Shown here piece after piece: positions 463-54,024 of a stretch of 64,000 nucleotides of DNA. The position numbers and the translations under genes are program-made. The notes beneath the pieces are model-generated. The model saw nothing but the letters and a program-made list of their open reading frames with translations. It had not been told where the DNA came from and did no database searches. Origin of the DNA: Escherichia coli (GTDB taxonomy: Bacteria > Pseudomonadota > Gammaproteobacteria > Enterobacterales > Enterobacteriaceae); assembly GCF_024502345.1 (NCBI RefSeq), contig NZ_JALDNN010000001.1. The stretch is one strand, 5' to 3'. Position 1 is the first letter of the stretch. Every line of letters begins with the position of its first letter.

Positions 463-1821
<1,359 letters not shown>

Positions 1822-2436: not shown

Positions 2437-2889
2437 TTGTCCACATTAGAGCAAAAATTAACAGAGATGATTACTGCGCCAGTTGAGGCCCTGGGTTTTG
2501 AACTGGTTGGCATCGAATTTATTCGCGGTCGCACATCCACACTGCGCATCTATATTGATAGTGAAGATGGCATCAATGTTGATGATTGTGCTGATGTGAG
2601 CCACCAGGTAAGTGCTGTGCTGGATGTTGAAGATCCCATCACCGTTGCTTATAACCTGGAAGTCTCCTCACCGGGTCTCGATCGCCCACTGTTCACGGCT
2701 GAACACTACGCCCGTTTTGTCGGAGAAGAGGTGACTCTGGTTCTCCGTATGGCGGTACAAAACCGTCGTAAATGGCAGGGCGTTATCAAAGCGGTAGACG
2801 GTGAAATGATCACAGTTACCGTCGAAGGTAAAGATGAAGTGTTCGCGCTGAGTAATATCCAGAAGGCGAACCTGGTTCCCCACTTTTAA
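2437..2889 (+). CDS. rimP: ribosome maturation factor RimP
   Basis: ORF matches RimP ([20 protein letters not shown]...); start assigned to in-frame TTG giving 150 aa. Confidence 0.85.
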
Positions 2890-2916
2890 TAGTCTGGATG
2901 AGGTGAAAAGCCCGCG

Positions 2917-4404
<1,488 letters not shown>

Positions 4405-4428
4405 TAAACTGTAGCAGGAAGGAACAGC

Positions 4429-7101: not shown

Positions 7102-7111
7102 GGTTGTCTGG

Positions 7112-7190
7112 GTTGTAGGCCGGATAAGGCTTTTACGCCGCATCCGGCAGCCGTTGCCTGATGTGACGCTGGCGCGTCTTATCAGGCCAA
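7112..7190. repeat. REP (repetitive extragenic palindromic) element cluster
   Basis: GCCGGATAAGGC...GCATCCGGCA and GCCTGATGTGACGC...TCTTATCAGGCC palindromic units typical of E. coli REP. Confidence 0.7.
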
Positions 7191-7222
7191 CGTGAACAGC
7201 CCTTCCACCTGAAATTAATTTT

Positions 7223-7248
7223 AAAAAGGGGCTAACAGCCCCTTTTTT
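7223..7248 (+). terminator. hairpin + T-run between infB and rbfA (partial terminator)
   Basis: aaaaaggggctaacagcccctttttt. Confidence 0.5.
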
Positions 7249-7264
7249 GTCAGGAGAATTTATT

Positions 7265-7666
7265 ATGGCGAAAGAATTTGGTCGCCCGCAGCGCGTAGCG
7301 CAGGAAATGCAAAAAGAGATCGCTCTCATCCTGCAGCGTGAAATTAAAGATCCTCGCCTGGGCATGATGACCACCGTTTCCGGTGTCGAAATGTCTCGCG
7401 ACCTGGCGTATGCCAAAGTATATGTGACGTTCCTCAACGACAAAGATGAAGACGCGGTTAAAGCGGGCATCAAAGCGTTGCAAGAAGCTTCTGGTTTCAT
7501 CCGCAGCCTGCTGGGGAAAGCGATGCGCCTGCGTATCGTGCCGGAACTGACCTTCTTCTACGACAACTCTCTGGTTGAAGGGATGCGCATGTCAAACCTG
7601 GTGACCAGCGTGGTCAAACATGACGAAGAACGTCGTGTTAACCCGGACGACAGCAAGGAGGACTAA
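7265..7666 (+). CDS. rbfA: ribosome-binding factor A
   Basis: ORF matches RbfA starting [18 protein letters not shown]; 133 aa. Confidence 0.9.
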
Positions 7667-8610
7667 TGAGTCGTCCTCGTCGTCGCGGTCGCGACATTAA
7701 CGGCGTTTTGTTGCTGGATAAACCGCAGGGTATGTCCAGCAATGATGCGCTGCAAAAAGTGAAACGGATTTATAACGCCAACCGTGCCGGGCATACCGGT
7801 GCGCTGGACCCGCTGGCAACTGGCATGTTGCCAATTTGCCTCGGGGAAGCGACGAAGTTTTCCCAGTATCTGCTGGACTCCGACAAACGCTATCGGGTCA
7901 TTGCGCGTCTTGGACAGCGTACCGATACTTCTGATGCCGACGGACAAATCGTTGAAGAACGTCCGGTAACCTTTAGCGCAGAGCAACTGGCGGCGGCGCT
8001 GGATACTTTCCGTGGCGATATCGAACAGATCCCTTCGATGTATTCAGCACTGAAATATCAGGGTAAAAAACTGTACGAATATGCGCGTCAGGGCATTGAA
8101 GTACCGCGTGAAGCGCGCCCGATTACCGTTTATGAATTGCTGTTTATTCGCCACGAAGGCAATGAGCTGGAGCTGGAAATTCACTGCTCAAAAGGCACTT
8201 ATATCCGCACCATCATTGATGACCTGGGTGAAAAACTCGGTTGTGGCGCGCATGTTATTTACCTGCGTCGTCTGGCGGTAAGTAAATATCCGGTTGAACG
8301 GATGGTGACCCTGGAACATCTGCGTGAACTGGTCGAACAAGCCGAACAGCAGGATATTCCGGCTGCGGAGTTACTTGATCCATTACTGATGCCAATGGAC
8401 AGTCCAGCTTCGGACTACCCGGTGGTGAATCTTCCGTTAACGTCTTCTGTTTACTTCAAAAATGGTAACCCAGTTCGTACATCCGGTGCGCCGCTGGAAG
8501 GACTGGTTCGCGTTACAGAAGGTGAGAACGGCAAATTTATCGGTATGGGCGAAATTGACGATGAAGGCCGCGTTGCGCCTCGTCGTCTGGTGGTTGAATA
8601 CCCGGCGTAA
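7666..8610 (+). CDS. truB: tRNA pseudouridine-55 synthase
   Basis: 314-aa ORF recognised as TruB; overlaps rbfA stop. Confidence 0.95.
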
Positions 8611-8662
8611 TGTTAACCGTCTTGCGATAACAGGTCGCTACGAGTAGAATACTGCCGCTTAA

Positions 8663-9028
<366 letters not shown>

Positions 9029-9043
9029 TTCTTGCGAGTTTCA

Positions 9044-9072
9044 GAAAAGGGGGCCTGAGTGGCCCCTTTTTT
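9044..9072 (+). terminator. rpsO rho-independent terminator
   Basis: gaaaagggggcctgagtggcccctttttt hairpin + T-run. Confidence 0.7.
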
Positions 9073-9075
9073 CAA

Positions 9076-9274
9076 GCTGACGGCAGCAATTCACTGGAAA
9101 CTAATGTATTGTTGCTATGAATGATCTTCCGTTGCAGAGGTTCGCGCGGCTAATGAGAGGCTTTACCCACATTGGGCTGGGTTAGGGTTGTCATTAGTCG
9201 CGAGGATGCGCAGAAGATCGGGTATTAACACCAGTGCCGTAAGGTACTGTCTAAGAAAGAGAAAGGATATTACA
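9076..9274 (+). promoter_or_regulatory. pnp leader region (site of RNase III-processed autoregulatory hairpin in E. coli)
   Basis: Position between rpsO terminator and pnp start; established knowledge for this locus, structure not folded here. Confidence 0.45.
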
Positions 9275-11410
9275 TTGCTTAATCCGATCGTTCGTAAATT
9301 CCAGTACGGCCAACACACCGTGACTCTGGAAACCGGCATGATGGCTCGTCAGGCTACTGCCGCTGTTATGGTTAGCATGGATGACACCGCGGTATTTGTT
9401 ACCGTTGTTGGCCAGAAAAAAGCCAAACCAGGTCAGGACTTCTTCCCACTGACCGTTAACTATCAGGAGCGTACCTACGCTGCTGGTCGTATCCCGGGTA
9501 GCTTCTTCCGTCGTGAAGGCCGCCCAAGCGAAGGCGAAACGCTGATCGCGCGTCTGATTGACCGCCCGATTCGCCCGCTGTTCCCGGAAGGTTTCGTCAA
9601 CGAAGTTCAGGTTATCGCCACCGTGGTTTCTGTTAACCCGCAGGTTAACCCGGATATCGTCGCGATGATTGGTGCTTCCGCAGCACTGTCTCTGTCTGGT
9701 ATTCCGTTCAATGGTCCGATTGGTGCTGCTCGCGTAGGTTACATCAATGACCAGTACGTACTGAACCCGACTCAGGACGAGCTGAAAGAGAGCAAACTGG
9801 ATCTGGTTGTTGCCGGTACTGAAGCCGCTGTTCTGATGGTTGAATCTGAAGCTGAACTGCTGAGCGAAGACCAGATGCTGGGCGCAGTAGTGTTCGGTCA
9901 TGAACAACAGCAGGTTGTTATTCAGAACATCAATGAACTGGTGAAAGAAGCCGGTAAACCACGTTGGGACTGGCAGCCGGAGCCGGTAAACGAAGCGCTG
10001 AACGCGCGCGTTGCTGCACTGGCTGAAGCTCGCCTGAGCGATGCTTACCGCATCACCGACAAACAAGAGCGTTATGCGCAGGTTGATGTCATCAAATCTG
10101 AAACCATCGCGACGCTGCTTGCTGAAGACGAAACCCTGGACGAAAACGAACTGGGTGAAATTCTGCACGCTATCGAGAAAAACGTTGTTCGTAGCCGCGT
10201 ACTGGCAGGCGAACCGCGTATCGACGGTCGTGAAAAAGATATGATCCGTGGTCTGGATGTGCGTACTGGCGTGCTGCCGCGTACTCACGGTTCTGCGCTG
10301 TTCACCCGTGGTGAAACGCAGGCGCTGGTTACTGCAACGCTGGGTACCGCTCGTGACGCACAGGTTCTTGATGAACTGATGGGCGAACGTACCGACACCT
10401 TCCTGTTCCACTACAACTTCCCTCCGTACTCCGTAGGCGAAACCGGCATGGTCGGTTCTCCGAAGCGTCGTGAAATTGGTCACGGTCGTCTGGCGAAGCG
10501 CGGCGTGCTGGCAGTCATGCCGGATATGGACAAATTCCCGTACACCGTACGTGTTGTGTCTGAAATCACTGAATCCAACGGTTCCTCTTCTATGGCTTCC
10601 GTGTGCGGCGCGTCTCTGGCGCTGATGGACGCAGGTGTGCCGATCAAAGCTGCCGTTGCGGGTATCGCAATGGGTCTGGTGAAAGAAGGCGACAACTACG
10701 TTGTACTGTCTGACATTTTGGGCGACGAAGATCACCTGGGCGATATGGACTTCAAAGTTGCGGGTTCCCGCGAGGGTATCTCTGCATTGCAGATGGATAT
10801 CAAAATTGAAGGTATCACCAAAGAGATCATGCAGGTTGCGCTGAACCAGGCTAAAGGTGCGCGTCTGCATATCCTGGGCGTAATGGAACAGGCGATCAAC
10901 GCGCCGCGTGGCGATATCTCTGAGTTCGCACCGCGTATCCATACCATCAAGATCAACCCGGACAAGATCAAAGATGTTATCGGTAAAGGCGGCTCTGTTA
11001 TCCGTGCCCTGACCGAAGAAACCGGCACCACCATCGAAATCGAAGATGACGGTACTGTGAAGATCGCAGCGACCGACGGCGAGAAAGCGAAACACGCTAT
11101 TCGTCGTATCGAAGAGATCACTGCAGAAATTGAAGTGGGCCGCGTCTACACTGGTAAAGTGACCCGTATCGTTGACTTCGGCGCATTTGTTGCCATCGGC
11201 GGCGGTAAAGAAGGTCTGGTACACATCTCTCAAATCGCTGACAAACGCGTTGAGAAAGTGACCGATTACCTGCAGATGGGTCAGGAAGTACCGGTGAAAG
11301 TTCTGGAAGTTGATCGCCAGGGCCGTATCCGTCTGAGCATTAAAGAAGCGACTGAGCAGTCTCAACCTGCTGCAGCACCGGAAGCTCCGGCTGCTGAACA
11401 GGGCGAGTAA
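9275..11410 (+). CDS. pnp: polynucleotide phosphorylase (PNPase)
   Basis: ORF recognised as PNPase with KH and S1 domains at C-terminus; start placed at in-frame TTG ([15 protein letters not shown]) giving 711 aa. Confidence 0.9.
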
Positions 11411-11517
11411 GGTTGCCATTTGCCCTCCGCTGCGCGGGGGGCTTTTAACCGGGCAGGACGCCTTGTTAGCAACCGGGAACAGGACGTTCATTCAACCGTG
11501 GTCTTCGGGAGTGGGAA

Positions 11518-12402
11518 ATGAAGCCTTTTTTGCGCTGGTGTTTCGTTGCGACAGCACTTACGCTTGCAGGATGCAGTAATACTTCCTGGCGTAAAAGTGA
11601 AGTCCTCGCGGTACCATTGCAACCGACTTTACAGCAGGAAGTGATTCTGGCACGTATGGAACAAATCCTTGCCAGTCGGGCTTTAACCGATGACGAACGC
11701 GCACAGCTTTTATATGAGCGCGGAGTGTTGTATGATAGTCTCGGTCTGAGGGCATTAGCGCGTAACGATTTTTCGCAAGCGCTGGCAATCCGACCGGATA
11801 TGCCTGAAGTATTCAATTACTTAGGCATATATTTAACGCAGGCAGGCAATTTTGATGCTGCCTATGAAGCGTTTGATTCTGTACTTGAGCTTGATCCAAC
11901 TTACAACTACGCGCACTTGAATCGCGGGATCGCATTATATTACGGCGGTCGTGACAAGTTAGCGCAAGATGATCTGCTGGCGTTTTATCAAGACGATCCC
12001 AATGATCCTTTCCGTAGTCTGTGGCTTTATCTCGCCGAGCAGAAGCTCGATGAGAAGCAGGCTAAAGAAGTGTTGAAACAGCACTTCGAAAAATCGGATA
12101 AGGAACAGTGGGGATGGAACATTGTCGAGTTCTACCTGGGCAACATTAGCGAACAAACGTTAATGGAAAGGCTCAAGGCGGACGCAACGGATAACACCTC
12201 GCTCGCTGAGCATCTCAGTGAAACCAACTTCTATTTAGGTAAGTACTACCTAAGTCTGGGGGATTTGGACAGCGCCACGGCACTGTTCAAACTGGCGGTT
12301 GCCAACAACGTTCATAACTTTGTTGAGCACCGATACGCATTGTTGGAATTATCGCTCCTGGGCCAGGACCAAGATGACCTGGCAGAATCGGACCAGCAAT
12401 AG
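11518..12402 (+). CDS. nlpI: lipoprotein NlpI (TPR repeats)
   Basis: 294-aa ORF with lipobox (LTLAGC) and TPR-like repeats; recognised as NlpI. Confidence 0.95.
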
Positions 12403-12581
12403 CTGACGTACACATCAGCCCGTAATCTTTTTTGATTGCCATCACCTTAACGGGTGAGGGCGTTGTTGTTCGTTAATACACCTACTTTGAGCCGGTTCAC
12501 ACTTTTCAATGAAAATTGCTGATCAATTTCATGATGAGTTATGTAGACTGGCCGCCATTAATTTTGAGGCACACGTACTAC

Positions 12582-14471
12582 ATGGCTGAATTCGAAACCA
12601 CTTTTGCAGATCTGGGCCTGAAGGCTCCTATCCTTGAAGCCCTTAACGATCTGGGTTACGAAAAACCATCTCCAATTCAGGCAGAGTGTATTCCACATCT
12701 GCTGAATGGCCGCGACGTTCTGGGTATGGCCCAGACGGGGAGCGGAAAAACTGCAGCATTCTCTTTACCTCTGTTGCAGAATCTTGATCCTGAGCTGAAA
12801 GCACCACAGATTCTGGTGCTGGCACCGACCCGCGAACTGGCGGTACAGGTTGCTGAAGCAATGACGGATTTCTCTAAACACATGCGCGGCGTAAATGTGG
12901 TTGCTCTGTACGGCGGCCAGCGGTATGACGTGCAATTACGCGCCCTGCGTCAGGGGCCGCAGATCGTTGTCGGTACTCCGGGCCGTCTGCTGGACCACCT
13001 GAAACGTGGCACTCTGGACCTCTCTAAACTGAGCGGTCTGGTTCTGGATGAAGCTGACGAAATGCTGCGCATGGGCTTCATCGAAGACGTTGAAACCATT
13101 ATGGCGCAGATCCCGGAAGGTCATCAGACCGCTCTGTTCTCTGCAACCATGCCGGAAGCGATTCGTCGCATTACCCGCCGCTTTATGAAAGAGCCGCAGG
13201 AAGTGCGCATTCAGTCCAGCGTGACTACCCGTCCTGACATCAGCCAGAGCTACTGGACTGTCTGGGGTATGCGCAAAAACGAAGCACTGGTACGTTTCCT
13301 GGAAGCGGAAGATTTTGATGCGGCGATTATCTTCGTTCGTACCAAAAACGCGACTCTGGAAGTGGCTGAAGCTCTTGAGCGTAACGGCTACAACAGCGCC
13401 GCGCTGAACGGTGACATGAACCAGGCGCTGCGTGAACAGACACTGGAACGCCTGAAAGATGGTCGTCTGGACATCCTGATTGCGACCGACGTTGCAGCCC
13501 GTGGCCTGGACGTTGAGCGTATCAGCCTGGTAGTTAACTACGATATCCCGATGGATTCTGAGTCTTACGTTCACCGTATCGGTCGTACCGGTCGTGCGGG
13601 TCGTGCTGGCCGCGCGCTGCTGTTCGTTGAGAACCGCGAGCGTCGTCTGCTGCGCAACATTGAACGTACTATGAAGCTGACTATTCCGGAAGTAGAACTG
13701 CCGAACGCAGAACTGCTGGGCAAACGCCGTCTGGAAAAATTCGCCGCTAAAGTACAGCAGCAGCTGGAAAGCAGCGATCTGGATCAATACCGCGCACTGC
13801 TGAGCAAAATTCAGCCGACTGCAGAAGGTGAAGAGCTGGATCTCGAAACTCTGGCTGCGGCACTGCTGAAAATGGCACAGGGTGAACGTACTCTGATCGT
13901 ACCGCCAGATGCGCCGATGCGTCCGAAACGTGAATTCCGTGACCGTGATGACCGTGGTCCGCGCGATCGTAACGACCGTGGCCCGCGTGGTGACCGTGAA
14001 GATCGTCCGCGTCGTGAACGTCGTGATGTTGGCGATATGCAGCTGTACCGCATTGAAGTGGGCCGCGATGATGGTGTTGAAGTTCGTCATATCGTTGGTG
14101 CGATTGCTAACGAAGGCGACATCAGCAGCCGTTACATTGGTAACATCAAGCTGTTTGCTTCTCACTCCACCATCGAACTGCCGAAAGGTATGCCGGGTGA
14201 AGTGCTGCAACACTTTACGCGCACTCGCATCCTCAACAAACCGATGAATATGCAGTTGCTGGGCGATGCACAGCCGCATACTGGCGGTGAGCGTCGTGGC
14301 GGTGGTCGTGGTTTCAGTGGCGAGCGTCGTGAAGGCGGTCGTAACTTTAGCGGTGAACGCCGTGAAGGTGGTCGTGGTGATGGTCGTCGTTTTAGCGGCG
14401 AACGTCGTGAAGGCCGCGCTCCGCGTCGTGATGAATCTACCGGTCGTCGTCGTTTCGGTGGTGATGCGTAA
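12582..14471 (+). CDS. deaD: ATP-dependent DEAD-box RNA helicase DeaD/CsdA
   Basis: DEAD-box motifs ([20 protein letters not shown]) and RG-rich C-terminal repeats; start at [11 protein letters not shown] (629 aa). Confidence 0.9.
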
Positions 14472-14513
14472 TCATCGCTGAACAGCGAACACAGTCTGTA
14501 AAATAATATATAC

Positions 14514-14544
14514 AGCCCCGATTTGAACCATCGGGGCTTTTTTT
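14514..14544 (+). terminator. deaD rho-independent terminator
   Basis: agccccgatttgaaccatcggggcttttttt. Confidence 0.7.
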
Positions 14545-14624
14545 CTGTCTTTTGTACTCGTGTACTGGTACAGTGCAATACATAACAACGCAGTCGCACT
14601 ATTTTTCACTGGAGAGAAGCCCTC

Positions 14625-15869
14625 ATGGCAACACTAACCACCACCCAAACGTCACCGTCGCTGCTTGGCGGCGTGGTGATTATCGGCGGCACCATTATTG
14701 GCGCAGGGATGTTTTCTCTGCCAGTGGTCATGTCCGGGGCGTGGTTTTTCTGGTCAATGGCGGCGCTGATCTTTACCTGGTTCTGTATGCTGCATTCCGG
14801 CTTGATGATTCTGGAAGCTAACCTGAATTACAGAATCGGTTCGAGTTTTGACACCATCACCAAAGATTTGCTGGGCAAAGGCTGGAACGTGGTCAACGGC
14901 ATTTCCATTGCCTTTGTGCTCTATATCCTGACCTATGCCTATATTTCTGCCAGTGGTTCGATTCTGCATCACACCTTCGCAGAGATGTCACTAAACGTCC
15001 CGGCACGGGCGGCGGGTTTTGGTTTTGCATTGCTGGTAGCGTTTGTGGTGTGGTTGAGCACTAAAGCCGTCAGTCGCATGACAGCGATTGTGCTGGGGGC
15101 GAAAGTCATTACCTTCTTCCTCACCTTTGGTAGCCTGCTGGGGCATGTGCAGCCTGCGACATTGTTCAACGTCGCCGAAAGCAATGCGTCTTATGCACCG
15201 TATCTGTTGATGACCCTGCCGTTCTGTCTGGCATCGTTTGGTTATCACGGTAACGTGCCAAGCCTGATGAAGTATTACGGCAAAGATCCGAAAACCATCG
15301 TGAAATGCCTGGTGTACGGTACGCTGATGGCGCTGGCGCTGTATACCATCTGGTTGCTGGCGACGATGGGTAACATCCCGCGTCCGGAGTTTATCGGTAT
15401 TGCAGAGAAGGGCGGTAATATTGATGTGCTGGTACAGGCGTTAAGCGGCGTACTGAACAGCCGTAGTCTGGATCTGCTGCTGGTCGTGTTCTCAAACTTT
15501 GCGGTAGCGAGTTCGTTCCTCGGCGTAACGCTGGGTTTGTTTGACTATCTGGCAGATCTGTTTGGTTTCGACGACTCGGCTGTGGGCCGCTTGAAAACGG
15601 CATTGCTGACCTTTGCCCCGCCAGTTGTGGGGGGGCTGTTGTTCCCGAACGGATTCCTGTACGCCATTGGTTATGCTGGTTTAGCGGCTACCATCTGGGC
15701 GGCAATTGTTCCGGCGCTGTTAGCCCGTGCATCGCGTAAACGCTTTGGCAGCCCGAAATTCCGCGTCTGGGGTGGCAAGCCGATGATTGCGCTGATTCTG
15801 GTGTTTGGCGTCGGCAACGCACTGGTGCATATTTTATCGAGCTTTAATTTACTGCCGGTGTATCAGTAA
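14625..15869 (+). CDS. mtr: tryptophan-specific permease
   Basis: 414-aa polytopic membrane ORF recognised as Mtr. Confidence 0.9.
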
Positions 15870-15985
15870 TCAGCGGGCCTTATCCGACATTTCTGCTGCC
15901 TACACAATGCCTGATGCGCTTCGCTTATCAGGCCTACGTAGGACAGCGTTGCCAGCTCGGATAAGGCTTCCCGCGTTAAGACACA
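15870..15985. repeat. REP element cluster between mtr and yhbW
   Basis: GCCTGATGCGCTTCGCTTATCAGGCCTAC and CGGATAAGGC palindromic units. Confidence 0.7.
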
Positions 15986-16993
15986 CTATCCCAACAACTC
16001 TTCCTTAACATCCATCGCCAGCTCAAACGAATGCAGGCGCGCCTGGTGGTCGAAAATCTGCCCGTTAACCATAATCTCATCGGCGTCGGTTTCGCGCAGG
16101 ATCGACTGCAAGCCATGACGCACTTTCGCTTTATCGCCCACCAGCGACATACTCAGCGCCTGTTGCACGCCATACTGCTCAGACGGTGACCAGAACTGAT
16201 CCATATTTTGAATCGGCGGCGGCAGTTGCCCGGTTTCGCCACGGCGCAGCTTCACAAAGGCTTGCTGCATTGAGGTAAACAGAAATTCAGCGTCGCGGTT
16301 GCTGTCGGCAGCGATAATATTGATGCACACCATCGCGTATGGTTTTTCCAGTCGTGCCGACGGTTTGAAGTTGCTGCGATAAAGATGCAGCGCCTGGAAC
16401 AACATATCCGGCGCGAAGTGTGAGGCAAACGCAAACGGCAGACCAAGCTGCGCCGCCAGTTGCGCGCTGTAAAGGCTGGAGCCTAACAACCACACGGGGA
16501 TTTTCTCGCCATAGCCTGGTACCGGGCGCACATGCGGATTGGGATCGCGGGCGTCAAACCAGTCCACCAGCTCCGCCACATCGCGGGGGAAATTATCAAT
16601 ATCGCCGCTCATATGACGACGTAGCGCCATCATTGTCCGTTGGTCACTACCCGGAGCACGACCCAGCCCCAAATCGATTCGCCCCGGATAGAGTGTATTA
16701 AGCGTGCCGAACTGTTCTGCAATGACCAACGGTGAGTGGTTAGGCAACATCACGCCGCCAGACCCCAGATGCAGCGTGGTGGTATTCGCCGCCAGATAGC
16801 CAATCAATACCGACGTGGCAGCACTGGCAATGCCAGTCATATTGTGGTGTTCTGCCAGCCAGTAGCGATGATAGCCGCGCTTTTCAGCCAGACGGGCGAG
16901 ATCGAGAGAGTGGGAGAATGCTTCTCGCGCTGAAGAACCTTCGGGAATGGGGGCCAGATCGAGTAGCGAAAACGCAATGGTTTTATCAGTCAT
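15986..16993 (-). CDS. yhbW: luciferase-like (LLM-family) monooxygenase
   Basis: 335-aa ORF; recognised as YhbW. Confidence 0.85.
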
Positions 16994-17073
16994 AACAGCT
17001 CACTTTGTTACCGATTAATCTTTAATACTGCATTAAAGAGTAGTTAAAGTTGTTAACAAAGTGAGCTATTTAC

Positions 17074-17952
17074 TTAGGCTTGCAGCTCCAGTCCTGCCAG
17101 CCGCCACCAGTAGCCGTTACAGTCGCTGTTCGCCGTCAACGGCAGTGGTGCAGCGCCATTTTCATTAGCGCGGAAGGCGTCGAGCATCGCGAAAGTGTCA
17201 GTACCCTGCGGTGACAGGCGGACCACATCAACCAGGCCCTGCATGGATGCCAGCTCGTTACCGAGGTTGTAAACGTAGCCGCTCATGGTCTGAATGCCAT
17301 TGAGTACAAACACTTGTTGGTTTTCCTGCGACAGCACGTTGCGCCCGTTCGGATACTTAATGCAGCAGGTTTCACACTCATCTTTCGGGCGGTCTTCCGA
17401 ACGCGCGGTAAAGCAGCGAGCGGAGTAGGCCAGCGGTAGATGACCGTAGCTCAGGACTTCCACTTCAAACTGGTTGCGAATGCCCAGCTCATCGCACTGA
17501 TTAAGCAGATTCACCAGCCAGTCGCGGGAAAGCTCCACCGGCATACACCAGCGCATCATGCCCTGTTTGAGCAATATTTTCAGCGTCACCGCGTTATAGC
17601 AGTTCAGCGCGTGTCCGGCGACGAACGGCAGTTTGCGTTCAGCGCACATATTCACCACGCCGAGATCGCTGGCTTCAATCAGAAACTCACCGTTCTCAAC
17701 ATAGCGTTTCAGTTCGCCCAGTTCAGATGATGCCTGCACCAGCGCCAGCGTGGAGAGCACTATCTGCTTACCACTTCCGGCGAGCGATTTTGCCATCTCC
17801 AGCCAGTCGCCAACTTTGGTTGCCCGGCGCTTGCTGCAAACCGCTTCGCCAAGATAAATCACGTCGGCGCTGCTGGTGGCGGCCTGCTGATAAAAATCTT
17901 CCAGCGTCTCTTTTGGCCAGTACCACAGCACTGGCCCTAAGGAATATTTCAT
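17074..17952 (-). CDS. ubiV: U32-family protein UbiV (O2-independent ubiquinone biosynthesis)
   Basis: ORF recognised as YhbV; start trimmed to MKYSLGPVLWYW. Confidence 0.8.
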   Translation of the reverse strand: MKYSLGPVLWYWPKETLEDFYQQAATSSADVIYLGEAVCSKRRATKVGDWLEMAKSLAGSGKQIVLSTLALVQASSELGELKRYVENGEFLIEASDLGVVNMCAERKLPFVAGHALNCYNAVTLKILLKQGMMRWCMPVELSRDWLVNLLNQCDELGIRNQFEVEVLSYGHLPLAYSARCFTARSEDRPKDECETCCIKYPNGRNVLSQENQQVFVLNGIQTMSGYVYNLGNELASMQGLVDVVRLSPQGTDTFAMLDAFRANENGAAPLPLTANSDCNGYWWRLAGLELQA

Positions 17953-17960
17953 TGATCTTC

Positions 17961-18956
17961 TCACTGCCATTTACGGTGATACGCGCCAAGGGTGGTCTGC
18001 GTGCCTTCGGACATCGACCCGAGCGTCTCCATCCACGCGCTTTGCGGTACGAAGTTTTGCGGATCGGCCTTACAACGGTCGATAGCCTGACGCCAGACTT
18101 TCGCCACTTGGCTGACATACGCCGGGCTACGCTGGCGGCCTTCAATTTTCACCGAAGCGATATTCGACGCCATTAACTCCGGCAGCAGTTCCAGGGTATT
18201 GAGACTGGTTGGTTCTTCCAGCGCGTGATAGCGCTCGCCGTCCACCAGATAACGCCCTTTACACAACGTCGGATAACCTGCGTTTTCGCCGTCCTGATAA
18301 CGGTCGATCAGCACTTCGTTCAGGCGGGATTCCAGCCCCTGCGGCGTTTGCTGCCAGCGCACGAAACGGGCCGGAGAACACGCACCTACAGTGTTGGGCG
18401 ACTCACCCGTCAGATACGACGACAGATAGCAACGGCCTTCCGACATAATGCACAGGCTGCCAAAAGCAAAGACTTCCAGCGGGACAGGTGTGACCCGTGC
18501 CAGCTGTTTCACCTGATGAATCGACAACACGCGCGGCAGCACCACGCGGGCAACGTCAAAATGGCGATGATAAAAGTTAATCGCCTCTTCATTGGTCGCC
18601 GAAGCCTGCACTGACACATGACGCTCAATATGCGGGTAACGCTCGGCGGCGTACTCCAGCATGGCGAGGTCGGCGAGGATCAGCGCGTCGGCACCCAGCT
18701 GCGCCGCCATATCCACGGCGCGCTGCCAACGCGCGTAACCGTCCGGATGCGCAAAAGTGTTAATCGCGATGTGAAGTTTGCGGCGATGTTGATGGACAAA
18801 ACTCACCGCTTCCTGCAATTTTTTCTCGGTAAAGTTAAGGCCGGCGAAGTGACGGGCATTGGTATCATCTTTTAGCCCGATATAAACAGCATCTGCGCCG
18901 TTTTCGATGGCCGCCTTAAGCGCCGGGAGATTTCCGGCAGGGCAGAGCAGCTCCAT
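17961..18956 (-). CDS. ubiU: U32-family protein UbiU (O2-independent ubiquinone biosynthesis)
   Basis: ORF recognised as YhbU; start trimmed to MELLCPAGNLP. Confidence 0.8.
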   Translation of the reverse strand: MELLCPAGNLPALKAAIENGADAVYIGLKDDTNARHFAGLNFTEKKLQEAVSFVHQHRRKLHIAINTFAHPDGYARWQRAVDMAAQLGADALILADLAMLEYAAERYPHIERHVSVQASATNEEAINFYHRHFDVARVVLPRVLSIHQVKQLARVTPVPLEVFAFGSLCIMSEGRCYLSSYLTGESPNTVGACSPARFVRWQQTPQGLESRLNEVLIDRYQDGENAGYPTLCKGRYLVDGERYHALEEPTSLNTLELLPELMASNIASVKIEGRQRSPAYVSQVAKVWRQAIDRCKADPQNFVPQSAWMETLGSMSEGTQTTLGAYHRKWQ

Positions 18957-19164
18957 AATTTTTCCTGAAGGTTGCGCTATCAAAACGCAAAAATGTTAAC
19001 GAACTGGGATTTTAGTTAACCTTGCTGCGACAATTTTTGATTTAAGGCAGTTAAAGTTGTATTGGTGGTAGCAGCAATTTCATATGGAATTGTTGATTTA
19101 TACCGCTATGTTATTTTTCTGATATGGCAAAATAGGATGATTGTTGAAACAGGGAGTAAAACTC

Positions 19165-19689
19165 GTGTTGGATAAACTGCGTTCCCGCATTGTGCATTTG
19201 GGACCATCTCTGTTGAGTGTACCGGTAAAACTGACGCCATTTGCGCTAAAACGCCAGGTTCTTGAGCAGGTCTTAAGCTGGCAATTCCGCCAGGCGCTGG
19301 ATGATGGTGAGCTGGAGTTCCTTGAAGGCCGCTGGTTAAGTATTCATGTGCGTGATATTGACCTGCAATGGTTTACCTCGGTGGTGAATGGCAAACTGGT
19401 GGTCAGCCAGAACGCGCAAGCTGATGTGAGTTTTAGTGCCGACGCCAGCGATCTGCTGATGATTGCGGCGCGTAAACAAGATCCGGATACGCTCTTCTTC
19501 CAGCGTCGGCTGGTGATTGAAGGCGATACGGAACTGGGGCTGTATGTGAAAAACCTGATGGACGCCATTGAACTGGAGCAAATGCCGAAAGCCTTACGCA
19601 TGATGCTGCTGCAACTGGCGGATTTTGTTGAGGCGGGAATGAAAACCGCGCCTGAAACCAAACAGACATCGGTAGGTGAACCATGCTAA
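19165..19689 (+). CDS. ubiT: SCP2-domain lipid carrier UbiT
   Basis: ORF recognised as YhbT; GTG start assumed; divergent from ubiUV. Confidence 0.75.
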   Translation: MLDKLRSRIVHLGPSLLSVPVKLTPFALKRQVLEQVLSWQFRQALDDGELEFLEGRWLSIHVRDIDLQWFTSVVNGKLVVSQNAQADVSFSADASDLLMIAARKQDPDTLFFQRRLVIEGDTELGLYVKNLMDAIELEQMPKALRMMLLQLADFVEAGMKTAPETKQTSVGEPC

Positions 19690-20186
19690 TTCGAGTAGAA
19701 ATTCCCATTGATGCGCCGGGTATTGATGCCCTGCTGCGTCGTTCATTCGAAAGTGATGCGGAAGCGAAGCTGGTTCACGATCTGCGTGAAGATGGCTTTC
19801 TGACGCTGGGGCTGGTGGCGACAGATGACGAAGGTCAGGTCATTGGCTATGTGGCATTTAGTCCGGTTGATGTGCAGGGCGAAGACCTGCAATGGGTCGG
19901 CATGGCACCGTTGGCGGTTGATGAAAAATACCGTGGACAGGGGCTGGCACGCCAACTGGTCTATGAAGGACTCGATTCGCTTAATGAGTTCGGCTATGCC
20001 GCAGTGGTGACGCTGGGCGATCCGGCGCTGTACAGCCGTTTTGGCTTTGAACTGGCGGCACATCACGATCTGCGTTGCCGCTGGCCGGGCACTGAAAGCG
20101 CCTTCCAGGTACATCGTTTAGCGGATGACGCGTTGAATGGCGTAACTGGTCTGGTTGAGTATCACGAGCATTTCAATCGCTTTTAA
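19683..20186 (+). CDS. yhbS: GNAT-family N-acetyltransferase
   Basis: 167-aa ORF recognised as YhbS. Confidence 0.85.
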
Positions 20187-20475
20187 TCTCCGGGGTTTGC
20201 AGACTGCTTAACAGCTCTGCAAACCCTGCGCCTTCCGCTACCAGACGCTCTTTTTGCCGTTTGGTCAGTTGCTTAACGCGATATTCCGCCCGTAACGCCA
20301 GCGAACGATCGCCCACTGGCGCAGAAAACGCCAGCGTCAGTTCTCCTTTCCCGCGCAGTGCTTTCGCCCCTTTGCCGCTTTGGTGCTGCTGATAGCGGCG
20401 TTCGACATCCGTGGTGATCCCGGTATAAAGCTTATTGTCGGCGGTACGGATCAAGTAAAGAAACCAGGGTGCCAT
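20173..20475 (-). CDS. yhbQ: GIY-YIG domain nuclease
   Basis: 100-aa ORF with GIY...YTG motif ([18 protein letters not shown]). Confidence 0.85.
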
Positions 20476-20525
20476 CGTCTGCGTCGCATGTTAAGGTCAG
20501 GCCCACAGTATAAAAGAGAACAGCA

Positions 20526-20948
20526 ATGGAAACACTCATCACCATCAGCCGTTGGTTGGCAAAACAACATGTTGTCACCTGGTGTGTGCAGCAGGAAGGG
20601 GAACTCTGGTGCGCCAATGCCTTTTATCTTTTTGATGCACAGAAAGTCGCCTTCTACATTTTGACGGAAGAAAAAACACGTCATGCGCAGATGAGTGGGC
20701 CGCAGGCGGCAGTTGCCGGAACGGTAAACGGTCAGCCGAAAACGGTAGCGTTAATTCGCGGCGTGCAGTTTAAAGGCGAGATCCACAGGCTGGAAGGTGA
20801 GGAAAGCGACCTCGCACGCCAGGCGTACAATCGTCGCTTTCCGGTTGCCAGAATGCTGTCGGCTCCGGTGTGGGAAATCCGGCTCGATGAAATCAAATTC
20901 ACCGACAACACGCTGGGCTTTGGTAAAAAAATGATTTGGCTACGCGGC

Positions 20949-20969
<21 letters not shown>
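20526..20969 (+). CDS. yhbP: UPF0306 protein YhbP
   Basis: 147-aa ORF recognised as YhbP. Confidence 0.85.
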
Positions 20970-22230
<1,261 letters not shown>

Positions 22231-22302
22231 TTATTCCCAAGAATTGATAGTGAGCGTAATATTCACGCGCTCAATTATCATAACTTATTCCTGGGGAATG
22301 CT

Positions 22303-23343
22303 ATGACTGGTCAGTCTTCATCTCAGGCGGCAACGCCCATTCAGTGGTGGAAACCCGCGCTTTTCTTTCTCGTTGTCATTGCCGGTCTCTGGTATGTGAA
22401 ATGGCAACCTTACTACGGCAAAGCGTTTACTGCAGCCGAAACCCACAGTATCGGTAAATCTATCCTTGCGCAGGCGGATGCTAATCCATGGCAGGCGGCG
22501 TTGGATTACGCGATGATCTATTTCCTCGCGGTATGGAAAGCGGCGGTGCTGGGGGTGATCCTCGGTTCGTTGATTCAGGTGCTGATCCCGCGTGGCTGGT
22601 TGTTGCGTACGCTTGGGCAATCGCGCTTTCGCGGCACGCTGCTGGGAACGCTGTTTTCACTGCCGGGCATGATGTGTACCTGCTGTGCGGCTCCGGTCGC
22701 GGCGGGAATGCGTCGCCAACAGGTGTCGATGGGCGGTGCGCTGGCATTCTGGATGGGGAATCCGTTGTTAAACCCGGCGACGCTGGTGTTTATGGGTTTT
22801 GTCCTCGGTTGGCAATTTGCCGCGATTCGTCTGGTGGCGGGCCTGGTGATGGTGTTGCTGATTGCGACGCTGGTGCAAAAATGGGTGCGTGAAACACCGC
22901 AAACGCAGGCACCGGTCGAAATTGACATACCGGAAGCACAGGGCGGATTTTTTAGCCGCTGGGGCAGGGCGCTATGGACGCTTTTCTGGAGTACGATCCC
23001 GGTTTACATCCTTGCAGTACTGGTGTTGGGTGCCGCTCGCGTCTGGTTATTCCCCCATGCCGATGGTGCTGTCGATAACAGCCTGATGTGGGTGGTGGCG
23101 ATGGCGGTAGCAGGATGCTTGTTTGTCATTCCCACGGCAGCAGAAATTCCGATTGTACAAACGATGATGCTGGCAGGTATGGGAACTGCTCCGGCGCTGG
23201 CATTGTTGATGACGCTCCCGGCGGTGAGTTTGCCGTCACTGATTATGCTGCGCAAAGCGTTCCCGGCGAAAGCCTTATGGCTGACAGGGGCGATGGTGGC
23301 AGTGTCAGGCGTGATTGTCGGCGGGCTGGCGCTGTTATTCTGA
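22303..23343 (+). CDS. yraQ: predicted permease (UPF0718)
   Basis: 346-aa polytopic membrane ORF recognised as YraQ. Confidence 0.85.
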   Translation: MTGQSSSQAATPIQWWKPALFFLVVIAGLWYVKWQPYYGKAFTAAETHSIGKSILAQADANPWQAALDYAMIYFLAVWKAAVLGVILGSLIQVLIPRGWLLRTLGQSRFRGTLLGTLFSLPGMMCTCCAAPVAAGMRRQQVSMGGALAFWMGNPLLNPATLVFMGFVLGWQFAAIRLVAGLVMVLLIATLVQKWVRETPQTQAPVEIDIPEAQGGFFSRWGRALWTLFWSTIPVYILAVLVLGAARVWLFPHADGAVDNSLMWVVAMAVAGCLFVIPTAAEIPIVQTMMLAGMGTAPALALLMTLPAVSLPSLIMLRKAFPAKALWLTGAMVAVSGVIVGGLALLF

Positions 23344-39938: not shown

Positions 39939-40078
39939 ATCCCTTCCTCGACCGGACATTCTTCATGGCAGCGGTCTAACTCGTCCACCAGACTGGTCAG
40001 CCCACGATGTCCACACTCCAGCGCCTGTACTCGGAATTCTTCACCGCTTAACCCTTCGCGCTCCAGCACCATCTCCAG
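39935..40078 (-). pseudogene. agaF: 3' remnant (47 codons) of PTS EIIA gene agaF, lacking start
   Basis: In-frame peptide LEMVLEREGLSGEEFRVQALECGHRGLTSLVDELDRCHEECPVEEGI ending in stop that overlaps agaA start; no upstream initiator. Confidence 0.5.
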
Positions 40079-40241
40079 TACCGCCGGTTAAAATACCGGT
40101 ATGCAGATCGCCAAGTACCAGCCCGACTAACGGGCCGAGGACCACCGGGCGGTGCATATGGGTTAAGCCGTTAAACATATCCAGGCCAGCGATAAAGGCG
40201 ATAATGCCCAACGCGAATGCCTGCAACAGACTGATTTCCAT
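40041..40241 (-). pseudogene. agaW: 5' fragment of PTS EIIC gene agaW (54 native codons then frameshifted tail)
   Basis: N-terminus MEISLLQAFALGIIAFIAGLD... parallels AgaC N-terminus, then runs out of frame into agaF remnant. Confidence 0.6.
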
Positions 40242-40251
40242 GATGAATCCC

Positions 40252-50778: not shown

Positions 50779-50891
50779 AGATGAATGACTGTCCACGACA
50801 CTATACTCAAAAGAAAGCGGCTTATTGGTCAGTTTCACCTCTTTTAACGAAAACCCGGCAGCGTAAACTGGCGGGTTTTTGCTTTTTGGAG
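50779..50891 (+). repeat. direct repeat of the rnpB 3' end plus a second terminator-like hairpin
   Basis: agatgaatgactgtccacgaca...ggtcagtttcacct...gggtttttgcttttggag repeats 50678-50770 with divergence; a third truncated start agatgaat at 50901. Confidence 0.75.
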
Positions 50892-50954
50892 CATAGTGTA
50901 AGATGAATAAATATCTACGGTATTAATAATAGACTTTGTAAGAAATTATTAAGT

Positions 50955-52142
50955 CTATATTGCATTTAAAAGGTCGTAATCATACGTATAGTCCTCTCTG
51001 GTAAAATATTGCTTCTCTGAGTTATAAGCTTCATATGTGTTATATTTTACGACCTCAAAGCAATTGTCTGGAGAATTTTCGTCTTTCTCGATTGTATTAT
51101 CTGGAAGGAATTCCTCTGAGCTAGAGTCCTCTATGTTTAAATCTGTATTGTAATTAATTTTTGGAACGATTAGATAAGCATTTTCTTTGACGCTTTCATA
51201 ATCTTTAATGATTATATCGATGTAATAATCTATTTTTTCTAATGAGAATGCTTTCATCTCTGGTAATTTAATTCTGTTCAAGTAATTGTTAATTTTCGAT
51301 GAGCTTTTATATATTTCTTTTGTTAATTCATTTTCTAATTCATCTGTTAGAGTTGCTCTTGGTATAGATTCTATAATTGCAAGTCTCATAATTTTTAATT
51401 GTTCTTCGGTAATATCTCCAAGCGCATTTAAACAACTTTTGATAAGTTTAATTTTTTCTTCAGAATACATATCGTTAATGCTTGTTATAACAGGCGTTAT
51501 TTTTAGTAAATAATCCCATGAGATTGTGGCGTTTTGTTTTGAACTAACGAAATTTACCTGAAACATGTTGGCATTAGTAAAATCTGTGTCATCCAATTTA
51601 AAAGGATTTAAAATTGTATTGGCCATATGTTTATCTGTAAAATCATAAGGTTCTAAATCGACATTCCGTAAGTCCAGAGAGGATAGATCAACTATACCTC
51701 CAGTCCCACAACTAAAGATAACGTTCAACCTCCTGATTTCATTGTAAATGTCTTTCAATGGGCAATTAACATTAATATTGCCTGTGGATATTTCCTGGTT
51801 TTTTAACGGTTCATTAATTGTAAGTTCACAGGTATTGTCTGATCGTTGAATAATTCGGGCGTTATAACCAAAAAAATCCATACGAAGAGACAAATCATTA
51901 TAAAGAATTACATTTTGTAAGTACGCTAATTCTTTTTGAAAATCACCAGTGATAACACATTTCCCACCTGGTTGTAACGCGTTAAGTAAAGTGACCATTT
52001 CAATAGAGGTCTGTTTTAGTTTTTCTATGCCTGGTGCTAGTGCTTCGAGGTTATTTCCTATGGGGCTTTCAGGAAGGTCATTCATTTTTCGACGGGCTAA
52101 ATCACTACTAATATCATTACCAATTGATGAAACAGGTGACAT
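50955..52142 (-). CDS. yhaC: uncharacterized pentapeptide-repeat-containing protein
   Basis: 395-aa ORF, strongly AT-rich; internal run of 5-residue periodicity (SSLDL RNVDL EPYDF TDKHM ANTIL NPFKL DDTDF TNANM FQVNF). Confidence 0.8.
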   Translation of the reverse strand: MSPVSSIGNDISSDLARRKMNDLPESPIGNNLEALAPGIEKLKQTSIEMVTLLNALQPGGKCVITGDFQKELAYLQNVILYNDLSLRMDFFGYNARIIQRSDNTCELTINEPLKNQEISTGNINVNCPLKDIYNEIRRLNVIFSCGTGGIVDLSSLDLRNVDLEPYDFTDKHMANTILNPFKLDDTDFTNANMFQVNFVSSKQNATISWDYLLKITPVITSINDMYSEEKIKLIKSCLNALGDITEEQLKIMRLAIIESIPRATLTDELENELTKEIYKSSSKINNYLNRIKLPEMKAFSLEKIDYYIDIIIKDYESVKENAYLIVPKINYNTDLNIEDSSSEEFLPDNTIEKDENSPDNCFEVVKYNTYEAYNSEKQYFTREDYTYDYDLLNAI

Positions 52143-52163
52143 TATTTTATCCTTTATAAATAA

Positions 52164-52655
52164 TCAATAAAAATCATTATTAAAATGATCGGGTGAAAAA
52201 AAGAGAACTTGCCAACAATCTGAAGGAATGGCGGTTTTATTAAAGTACGTAGGGGGGGGTAAGATGGCTTCTTTTCGGGTGAATTTTGCACAATACTTAG
52301 AAATCGTCTCCTTAATACATTCCAGCTCTTTTTTATTGACGGCTGAGCAAGTACATTGTTCACCAAAAGGTGCAAAAGTGCCTACATCTAATGTTTGTAT
52401 GATATAATCATCATGTTCTCCTGTAGAAATATCTATGATGAATGGACTCATATTTTCCGGTTGGATTCGGATCATGACAGAAGGAACATCGCCTTGATAG
52501 AAATTCAATGCAGTAATTGCAGATAATACTCTCCGCAGTTCATTACTTATACTGTAAATTTTATTAACGTCATTGGTGGAGACAATTTCTGCAAACTTTC
52601 TTTTTACCGTCCAATAATCAATATTTCTATTGTGATTGTTAACCACTGCGTGCAT
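52164..52655 (-). CDS. yhaB: uncharacterized protein YhaB, 5' end separated from its first ~12 codons by the IS insertion
   Basis: 163-codon ORF from an internal ATG; in-frame N-terminal extension MKGFPIAHIFHPSIPP is reconstituted only when the IS and one TSD copy are removed. Confidence 0.7.
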   Translation of the reverse strand: MHAVVNNHNRNIDYWTVKRKFAEIVSTNDVNKIYSISNELRRVLSAITALNFYQGDVPSVMIRIQPENMSPFIIDISTGEHDDYIIQTLDVGTFAPFGEQCTCSAVNKKELECIKETISKYCAKFTRKEAILPPPTYFNKTAIPSDCWQVLFFSPDHFNNDFY

Positions 52656-52670
52656 TGGCGGGATTGAAGG

Positions 52671-53727
52671 GGCTTTGTTGAATAAATCAGATTTCGGGTA
52701 AGTCTCCCCCGTAGCGGGTTGTGTTTTCAGGCAATACGCACGCTTTCAGGCATACCTGCTTTCGTCATTTTGTTCAGCGCTCGTACCAGGGCCATAGCCT
52801 CTGCAACCTGACCATCGTAGTCACGCAGTGTCAGTGAACCCCCGAACAGCTGTTTTACCCGGTACATCGCCGTTTCCGCTATCGAGCGACGGTTGTAATC
52901 TGTTGTCCATTTCCACCGCGCATTACTCCCGGTCATTCGCTGATTAGCCACTGCACGGTTACGGTCTGCATATTCACCGGGCCAGTAACCCGCACCTTTT
53001 CGGGGAGGGATAAGCGCGCTGATTTTCTTACGCCGCAGTTCATCGTGACATAGCCGGGTATCGTAAGCGCCATCGGCGGCGGCTGACCTGATTTTCCGGT
53101 GGGTTTGCCGGATTAACCCGGGGAAGGCCTCTGAGTCCGTAACGTTGTTCAGCGACAGGTCAGCGCAGATGATTTCATGTGTTTTACTGTCAACGGCGAG
53201 ATGCAGCTTACGCCAGATACGGCGGCGTTCCTGGCCATGCTTTTTGACTTTCCACTCGCCTTCACCGAAGACCTTCAGCCCGGTGGAATCAATTACCAGG
53301 TGTGCGATTTCACCCCGGGTGGGCGTTTTGAAACTGACATTAACCGACTTTGCCCGCCTGCTGACACAGCTGTAATCCGGGCAGCGTAGCGGAACGTTCA
53401 TCAGAGAAAAAATGGAATCAATAAAGCCCTGCGCAGCGCGCAGGGTCAGCCTGAATACGCGTTTAATGACCAGCACAGTCGTGATGGCAAGGTCAGAATA
53501 GCGCTGAGGTCTGCCTCGTGAAGAAGGTGTTGCTGACTCATACCAGGCCTGAATAGCTTCATCATCCAGCCAGAAAGTTATGGAGCCACGGTTGATGAGG
53601 GCTTTATTGTAGGTGGGCCAGTTGGTGATTTTGAACTTTTGCTTTGCCACGGAACGGTCTGCGTTGTCGGGAAGATACGTGATCTGATCCTTCAACTCAG
53701 CAAAAGTTCGATTTATTCAACAAAGCC
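52671..53727 (-). mobile_element. IS903-family (IS5 family, IS903/IS102 group) insertion sequence, 1057 bp, apparently intact
   Basis: 18-bp terminal inverted repeats GGCTTTGTTGAATAAATC at 52671-52688 and 53710-53727; single transposase ORF; flanked by 9-bp direct repeat GATTGAAGG (52662-52670 and 53728-53736). Confidence 0.9.
52727..53650 (-). CDS. IS903-type DDE transposase
   Basis: ORF ...KQKFKITNWPTYNKALINRGSITFWLDD...LVIDSTGLKVFGEGEW...ADGAYD...MPESVRIA; likely GTG start giving 307 aa (track shows 322-aa TTG-initiated frame to 53695). Confidence 0.85.
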   Translation of the reverse strand: MAKQKFKITNWPTYNKALINRGSITFWLDDEAIQAWYESATPSSRGRPQRYSDLAITTVLVIKRVFRLTLRAAQGFIDSIFSLMNVPLRCPDYSCVSRRAKSVNVSFKTPTRGEIAHLVIDSTGLKVFGEGEWKVKKHGQERRRIWRKLHLAVDSKTHEIICADLSLNNVTDSEAFPGLIRQTHRKIRSAAADGAYDTRLCHDELRRKKISALIPPRKGAGYWPGEYADRNRAVANQRMTGSNARWKWTTDYNRRSIAETAMYRVKQLFGGSLTLRDYDGQVAEAMALVRALNKMTKAGMPESVRIA

Positions 53728-54024
53728 GATTGAAGGGTGAAAAATATGTGCAATTGGGAAGCCTTTCATTGATGCCTGCCTTGTCGTCATGACAAACAAT
53801 AATAGATGCTTATTTTCCTCGCACGACACTTACGCACTATCAAAAAACGCTCATTTACCCGGCGTTACAGTAAACGAAGCAACATTCTGTGTCCTACGCT
53901 GATGTAAAGCACAGTGAAAATCCCCCTTGTTGACTTCGTCTGACCTTATCGCGGCGACCAGCAATTATTCGTTTTGTGATCCTCAACACAAAATGCTATT
54001 CGTCGCCTATGAGGGGAGAAGAAT

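What the first reader, a model, noticed from the sequence alone, without database searches (positions are those of the whole stretch)
52662..53736. Intact IS903-family element inserted in the 5' coding end of yhaB, with perfect 9-bp target duplication
A 1057-bp element has 18-bp terminal inverted repeats GGCTTTGTTGAATAAATC (52671-52688, 53710-53727) and is flanked by identical 9-bp direct repeats GATTGAAGG (52662-52670, 53728-53736), the hallmark of IS903 transposition. Its transposase ORF closely matches what I remember of IS903 from Tn903. Deleting the element plus one duplicated copy in silico restores an uninterrupted yhaB frame with 16 extra N-terminal codons (MKGFPIAHIFHPSIPP), so the element sits about 12 codons into yhaB. 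The perfect duplication and intact repeats imply a recent, probably still mobile insertion. It also lies between yhaC/yhaB and the tdcR-tdcA control region, so outward transcription could affect either side.
Basis: partly seen in the sequence, partly recalled or inferred. Interest (0 to 1): 0.5.

Follow-up and report, generated by a model that had tools for sequence, protein, structure and literature searches.

The report
Recent IS903B insertion disrupting yhaB
A well-known 1-kb jumping gene (insertion sequence IS903B), identical to copies on many enterobacterial plasmids, has recently landed in the start of the uncharacterised E. coli gene yhaB; this is an ordinary, strain-private event.

Summary
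Window 52671-53727 is a 1057-bp element with perfect 18-bp terminal inverted repeats. It is flanked by a perfect 9-bp target duplication, GATTGAAGG. It encodes an intact 307-aa DDE transposase on the minus strand.

The element is 100% identical over its full length to copies on many plasmids and E. coli chromosomes, all annotated IS903B. Its 50-nt ends equal the published IS903B ends. It is 97.1% identical to the Rts1/Tn2680 copy of IS903B and 92.6% identical to IS102.

Removing the element and one duplicate copy restores a 179-aa YhaB. That empty site occurs in K-12 and in thousands of E. coli genomes. One draft assembly is 100.000% identical over 9.2 kb of flank and has no IS.

None of 5,426 complete E. 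coli genomes carries this insertion. It is therefore a recent, private, simple insertion that most likely inactivates yhaB. I found no support for effects on tdc regulation, for an outward promoter, or for a local hotspot.

Verdict: real, correctly interpreted, already known in kind, low interest.

The parts
52662..52670 (.). Left copy of the 9-bp target-site duplication GATTGAAGG (yhaB codons 12-14 on the minus strand).
   Evidence: K-12 and RM8352 carry a single copy at this site.
52671..53727 (-). Complete IS903B element, 1057 bp, with the transposase on the minus strand.
   Evidence: 100% identical over positions 1-1057 to many plasmid and chromosomal copies annotated IS903B. 97.1% identical to the Rts1 IS903B copy and 92.6% to IS102.
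52671..52688 (.). 18-bp terminal inverted repeat at the transposase-distal end (IRR in the published convention).
   Evidence: The 50-nt end equals the IS903B IRR printed in PMC10569121.
53710..53727 (.). 18-bp terminal inverted repeat at the transposase-proximal end (IRL).
   Evidence: The 50-nt end equals the IS903B IRL printed in PMC10569121.
52727..53650 (-). Transposase gene: 307 aa from GTG at 53650. The ORF extends to a TTG at 53695, giving the 322-aa form that PGAP annotates.
   Evidence: ORF. Pfam DDE_Tnp_1_5 (4e-39) and DDE_Tnp_1 (7e-33), both full length. D121, D193 and E259 are present. The exact protein is on >=1000 public contigs named IS903B family transposase.
53728..53736 (.). 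Right copy of the target-site duplication GATTGAAGG.
53728..53769 (-). Detached 5' stub of yhaB (codons 1-14). It now reads into the IS end and stops at a TAA inside the inverted repeat: MKGFPIAHIFHPSIGFVE*.
   Evidence: The K-12 yhaB 5' end is shown.
52164..52670 (-). Remaining 3' part of yhaB. The first ATG is at 52655 (Met17 of the native protein), leaving a 163-aa remnant ORF cut off from its promoter and ribosome-binding site.
   Evidence: No Shine-Dalgarno-like sequence precedes the ATG.
50955..52142 (-). yhaC, intact at 395 aa. It starts 22 bp downstream of yhaB on the same strand and is therefore exposed to polarity from the insertion.
   Evidence: The identical allele occurs next to an uninterrupted yhaB in other assemblies.

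Best explanation
This is a single, complete, transposition-competent copy of IS903B (IS5 family, IS903 group). It entered the chromosome by simple insertion. By inference, its DDE transposase bound the two 18-bp ends, made 9-bp staggered cuts in the target at yhaB codons 12-14, joined the IS ends, and repair of the gaps produced the GATTGAAGG duplication. The donor was probably a resident plasmid or another chromosomal copy, because identical copies are widespread on enterobacterial plasmids. The insertion separates the yhaB promoter, ribosome-binding site and first 14 codons from the rest of the gene, so yhaB is most likely a null allele. The downstream co-oriented yhaC may suffer polarity. 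The event is recent and private to this strain, and it is probably neutral because yhaB and yhaC are dispensable genes of unknown function that often decay. What is shown: the anatomy, the identity, the empty site, the privacy and the recency. What is inferred: the transposition chemistry, the donor and the loss of yhaB function.
For: Anatomy: a 1057-bp element with perfect 18-bp IRs and a perfect 9-bp TSD.

Identity: 100% over the full length to many plasmid copies in Citrobacter, Salmonella, E. coli and Klebsiella, and to E. coli chromosomal copies, all annotated IS903B. The 50-nt ends are identical to the published IS903B IRL and IRR. There are 31 nt differences, and 2 aa differences within the 307-aa transposase, from the Rts1/Tn2680 IS903B copy, and 78 nt differences from IS102.

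Competence: the ORF is intact, both Pfam DDE domains are matched end to end, and the D-D-E residues are present. The same exact protein is on >=1000 contigs.

Empty site: the in-silico excised sequence is 100% identical over 600 bp to many E. coli genomes, and 4318 genomes cover it in one piece. K-12 has a single CCTTCAATC at yhaB codons 12-14, and the K-12 alignments of the two flanks overlap by exactly the duplication.

Recency and privacy: 0 of 5426 complete genomes carry this insertion. Assembly GCA_050022275.1 is 100.000% identical over 5717+3481 bp of flank and has no IS. A contig that shares this strain's lineage-specific aga deletion also has the empty yhaB site.

Neutrality: yhaB and yhaC lie within a deletion carried by the viable genome-reduced strain DGF-298. 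yhaC or yhaB is frameshifted in other strains.
Against: Nothing contradicts it. Four limits remain. ISfinder itself could not be queried. IS903 of Tn903 (V00359) was not available for direct comparison, so the name IS903B rests on PGAP naming, the published ends and the Rts1 copy. Mobility and loss of yhaB function are inferred and were not measured. The target flanks match the published IS903 preferred-target pattern WTTYA-N9-TRAAW at only 2 of 10 positions. That is compatible with the weak specificity of IS903 but does not add support.
Confidence: 0.96

Rival explanations
1. The element is IS102 or the original IS903 of Tn903 rather than IS903B.
For: All three are 1057-bp isoforms that are more than 94% identical to one another (PMC12670165). 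The window copy differs from the Rts1 IS903B copy by 31 nt. That is about as many as the 34 nt reported between IS903B and IS903 (PMC10569121).
Against: Identity to IS102 of pSC101 is only 92.6%, with 78 nt and 18 aa differences. The transposase differs from Rts1 IS903B at only 2 of 307 residues. PGAP and NCBI name the exact protein IS903B family. The 50-nt ends equal the published IS903B ends. IS903 of Tn903 was not compared directly.
Confidence: 0.1
2. The copy is one end of a composite transposon, or the product of recombination between two IS copies, and not a simple insertion.
For: IS903-group elements do form composite transposons such as Tn903 and TnaphA1-pIE545.
Against: There is only one copy in the 64-kb window. 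The 9-bp duplication directly flanks this single copy. The flanks are colinear and 100% identical to an IS-free relative, so no passenger DNA or rearrangement is present.
Confidence: 0.01
3. The insertion is adaptive or regulatory. On this view, transcription reading out of the IS drives the yhaB remnant and yhaC, or perturbs tdcR/tdcA.
For: The transposase is co-oriented with yhaB and yhaC. No terminator-like structure lies between its stop codon and the IS end.
Against: The promoter-like scan is at chance level: 8 sites against 5.2 +/- 2.3 in shuffles. No Shine-Dalgarno sequence precedes the remnant ATG. The tdc control region lies beyond the whole tdcR gene. The allele is private to one strain, so there is no sign of selection or recurrence at this site.
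Confidence: 0.05
4. The element was placed here by an assembly artefact, that is, a repeat collapsed or mis-joined by the assembler.
For: IS copies are classic sources of misassembly. IS903B is multicopy in many E. coli genomes, with up to 47 places per genome.
Against: A misjoin would not create a perfect 9-bp duplication of the exact target that is present once in relatives.
Confidence: 0.01

Closest known systems
IS903B (IS5 family, IS903 group; first described in Tn2680 of plasmid Rts1, Mollet et al. 1985)
   Same: Length of 1057 bp, 18-bp perfect IRs, 9-bp duplication and a single 307-aa DDE transposase. The 50-nt ends are identical to the published IS903B ends. The element is 100% identical to hundreds of copies annotated IS903B.
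   Different: There are 31 nt differences (97.1% identity) from the Rts1 copy. 27 of them fall in element positions 381-552. Within the 307-aa transposase there are 2 aa differences. This is the variant now common on plasmids, so the only new thing is the insertion site.
IS102 of pSC101
   Same: The same length with a gapless alignment, and the same IRs and organisation.
   Different: Only 92.6% nt identity, with 18 aa differences over the 322-aa ORF. That is below the usual 95% isoform threshold (a threshold I recall from memory of ISfinder practice).
IS903B insertions in mgrB of Klebsiella pneumoniae (colistin resistance)
   Same: The same element and the same mechanism: gene inactivation by simple insertion with a 9-bp duplication (PMC10569121).
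   Different: In mgrB the target has a selected phenotype and the insertions recur. Here the target is a dispensable gene of unknown function and the event is unique.

Membership tests
IS903 group of the IS5 family | Element of about 1057 bp bounded by perfect 18-bp inverted repeats GGCTTTGTTGAATAAATC | tested here: met
   52671-53727 is 1057 bp and the IRs are 18/18 complementary.
IS903 group of the IS5 family | 9-bp direct target-site duplication | tested here: met
   GATTGAAGG is present on both sides and once in empty-site genomes. Neighbouring IS903B copies in other genomes also have 9-bp duplications.
IS903 group of the IS5 family | Single long ORF encoding a DDE transposase of about 307 aa | tested here: met
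   Pfam DDE_Tnp_1_5 and DDE_Tnp_1 are matched over their full length. D121, D193 and E259 are present; the residue numbering is recalled from the IS903 mutagenesis literature, not looked up.
IS903B isoform | At least 95% nucleotide or 98% amino-acid identity to the reference IS903B | tested here: met
   97.1% nt identity and 305/307 aa to the Rts1/Tn2680 copy. The ends are identical to the published IS903B ends. The exact protein is named IS903B family by NCBI.
IS102 isoform | At least 95% nucleotide identity to IS102 of pSC101 | tested here: not met
   92.6% identity over 1057 bp.
IS903 of Tn903 (V00359) | Closest identity to the Tn903 copies | not tested
   No record holding Tn903 could be retrieved from the collections available here.
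Composite transposon (Tn903-like) | Two IS copies bracketing passenger DNA, with the duplication outside the pair | tested here: not met
   There is one copy in the 64-kb window, the duplication flanks it directly, and the flanks are colinear with an IS-free relative.
Active (mobile) insertion sequence | Demonstrated transposition of this copy | not testable with these tools
   Only indirect evidence is available: an intact ORF and ends, and identical copies at many different sites in many replicons.

The most novel reading that the evidence does not exclude
The AT-rich yhaC-yhaB-tdcR island (about 36% G+C) could be a regional preferred target for IS903B. Alternatively, transcription reading out of the co-oriented transposase gene could now drive yhaC, giving the insertion a regulatory effect and not merely a knockout. 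Several unrelated E. coli genomes carry independent IS903-group insertions within about 2 kb of this site. My rough estimate, however, is about 4 such places expected by chance against 6 observed.
Probability: 0.05. Interest if true: 0.25.

Novelty: already known. Interest (0 to 1): 0.08.

Why it matters
It matters little beyond annotation. The element should be annotated as IS903B and yhaB as a disrupted gene (pseudogene) in this strain. The insertion can serve as a strain-specific marker, because it is absent from 5,426 complete genomes and from an otherwise identical draft. It also shows that the plasmid-borne IS903B variant, known for knocking out mgrB in Klebsiella, is or recently was active in this E. 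coli lineage.

Tried and rejected
(1) Regional hotspot. Seven complete genomes have IS903-group copies near yhaB, in tdcA, in the rnpB-yhaC spacer and next to tdcR, each with its own 9-bp duplication. With 4712 chromosomal places in the collection and a search span of about 4 kb, roughly 4 are expected by chance, so I rejected this.

(2) Preferred target motif. The flanks GGCGG / GTGAA match WTTYA-N9-TRAAW at 2 of 10 positions. This is not a preferred site.

(3) Outward promoter or terminator. The consensus scan is at chance level. The 101 nt from the transposase stop into yhaB fold less stably than shuffled sequence, z = +1.84.

(4) Looking for the source genome through the exact 163-aa YhaB remnant found nothing on record.

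I used pSC101 (IS102) and Rts1 (IS903B) as references instead.

(6) I did not run the metagenome or genome-collection junction scans. Their cost was not justified once an IS-free relative identical across the 9.2 kb of flank compared had been found.

Full report
**Observation.** GGCTTTGTTGAATAAATC at 52671-52688 is the perfect reverse complement of 53710-53727. The element between these outer ends is 1057 bp long. GATTGAAGG occurs immediately outside both ends, at 52662-52670 and 53728-53736. The repeat finder reports 10 bp only because the first base of the element (G) equals the base that follows the right-hand copy. Identical copies elsewhere align to exactly 1-1057 of the element, which fixes the boundaries and the 9-bp duplication. 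Complementarity between the two ends stops after 18 bp. There is only one copy in the 64-kb window.

**What the element is.** One long ORF lies on the minus strand. It gives 322 aa from the TTG at 53695 and 307 aa from the GTG at 53650, and it stops at 52727. The 307-aa form matches Pfam DDE_Tnp_1_5 (4e-39, model 1-112 of 112) and DDE_Tnp_1 (7e-33, model 4-199 of 200). It has D, D and E at positions 121, 193 and 259, the triad I recall from IS903 mutagenesis work.

The 1057 bp are 100% identical to copies on plasmids of Citrobacter, Salmonella, E. coli and Klebsiella and on E. coli chromosomes. All of these are annotated 'IS5-like element IS903B family transposase'. Both forms of the protein are in the public protein collection on at least 1000 contigs under that name. 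The 50-nt ends computed are letter-for-letter the IS903B IRL and IRR printed in PMC10569121. The window's right end is IRL (transposase-proximal) and its left end is IRR.

Against reference copies I could fetch:
- IS102 of pSC101 is 92.6% identical, with 78 nt and 18 aa differences.
- The IS903B copy inside Tn2680 of Rts1, where the isoform was first described (PMC12670165), is 97.1% identical, with 31 nt differences and 2 aa differences within the 307-aa protein.

Of the 31 differences from the Rts1 copy, 27 fall in element positions 381-552. For most of the differing sites in that stretch Rts1 and IS102 share a base and the window differs, which looks like a recombinant patch. I could not reach ISfinder or the Tn903 sequence, so a direct comparison with IS903 proper is missing.

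**Empty site.** Deleting 52671-53736 in silico restores a 179-aa ORF. Its N-terminus MKGFPIAHIFHPSIPPMHAVVNN... is identical to K-12 YhaB. The 600-bp excised-site sequence is 100% identical to many E. coli genomes, including O121 RM8352, and 4318 genomes cover it in one piece. K-12 and RM8352 each carry a single copy of the 9-mer at yhaB codons 12-14. The K-12 alignments of the two flanks overlap by exactly the duplication.

**Private and recent.** In a search with the element plus 500-bp flanks, no record among 5,426 complete E. coli genomes matched as one colinear piece. The seven 'full-coverage' hits are three-piece matches in which an IS903-group copy sits at a different nearby site. These sites are in tdcA, in the rnpB-yhaC spacer and next to tdcR, and each has its own 9-bp duplication.

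The complete-genome set has no close relative of this strain. The best identity is 99.1-99.2% over 20 kb of housekeeping genes. Draft assemblies do have close relatives. Contigs encoding exactly the same YhaC allele all have an uninterrupted site at yhaB. One of them, GCA_050022275.1, is 100.000% identical over 5717+3481 bp of flank with no IS. A contig that shares the window's lineage-specific aga deletion (7134 bp, 1 mismatch) also has the empty yhaB site. The IS insertion is therefore younger than that deletion.

**Mechanism and consequences.** From established knowledge of IS903 and other DDE elements, the transposase binds the 18-bp ends. Target cleavage is staggered by 9 bp, and gap repair creates the duplication. 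This is inferred from the anatomy and was not shown here.

The insertion leaves a 5' stub of yhaB that now reads MKGFPIAHIFHPSIGFVE and stops at the TAA inside the inverted repeat. It also leaves a 163-aa remnant beginning at the native Met17. No Shine-Dalgarno-like sequence precedes that ATG. yhaB is therefore most likely null. yhaC starts 22 bp downstream on the same strand and may suffer polarity.

The transposase gene is co-oriented with yhaB and yhaC, and no terminator-like structure separates them. Read-through is therefore conceivable, but nothing supports it. Promoter-like sites in the region are at chance level, 8 against 5.2 +/- 2.3.

The tdcR-tdcA control region is not adjacent. All of tdcR lies between it and the IS.

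yhaB and yhaC have essentially no functional literature. They lie within a deletion carried by the viable reduced-genome strain DGF-298. They are frameshifted in some natural strains. The insertion is therefore probably neutral.

**Ideas tested and rejected.**
- The target flanks match the published IS903 preferred-target pattern WTTYA-N9-TRAAW (PMC2577343 Table 1) at only 2 of 10 positions.
- The nearby independent insertions in other genomes are about what chance predicts. There are 4712 chromosomal IS903-group places in the collection, which gives roughly 4 expected in the span searched against 6 seen.

**Comparison and verdict.** This is a textbook simple insertion of a known, currently very successful IS. 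IS903-group copies are present in 1,993 of 5,426 complete E. coli genomes, with up to 47 places per genome. The kind of element is already known and only the site is new. Interest is low.

Noticed in passing
window 39960-40250 (junction at about 40062-40080): A deletion of about 1.8 kb in the aga (N-acetylgalactosamine) cluster fuses the first ~60 codons of agaW to the 3' end of agaF. It removes agaE and leaves agaA intact. The two alignments to an intact cluster overlap by 19 bp, which points to microhomology at the junction. The end points differ from the well-known K-12 agaW'-'agaA deletion. No complete E. coli genome (0 of 5426) has this junction, but at least 21 draft or metagenome contigs do.
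   Followed up: yes
window 53051-53222 (element positions 381-552): 27 of the 31 differences from the Rts1 IS903B copy cluster in this 170-bp stretch. At most of the differing sites there, Rts1 and IS102 share a base and the window variant differs. This suggests a recombinant (mosaic) patch from another IS903-group isoform. The window variant is the one now common on plasmids.
   Followed up: partly
L001 3155-4211; L002 1501-2557; L003 1502-2557; L004 2473-3527: Other E. coli genomes carry independent IS903-group insertions within about 2 kb of this site: in tdcA, in the rnpB-yhaC spacer (two different sites) and next to tdcR. Each has its own 9-bp duplication. A rough estimate suggests this is no more than chance.
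   Followed up: yes
window 50875-52671: The yhaC-yhaB segment has about 36% G+C and is only 93.7% identical to K-12, while the neighbouring DNA is 98-99% identical. The pair is frameshifted in some strains (yhaC in RM8352, yhaB in ES3). It looks like a fast-evolving, decaying AT-rich islet.
   Followed up: partly
window 1-470: The sequence beyond the argG stop codon has no match to the corresponding K-12 region (the yhbX side), so this strain differs from K-12 at the window edge.
   Followed up: no
whole window (e.g. 2400-22400): No complete RefSeq E. coli genome is closer than about 99.1-99.2% over 20 kb of housekeeping genes (nusA-infB-pnp-deaD). Several draft assemblies are 99.9-100% identical around yhaB. 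The source lineage is unrepresented among complete genomes.
   Followed up: partly
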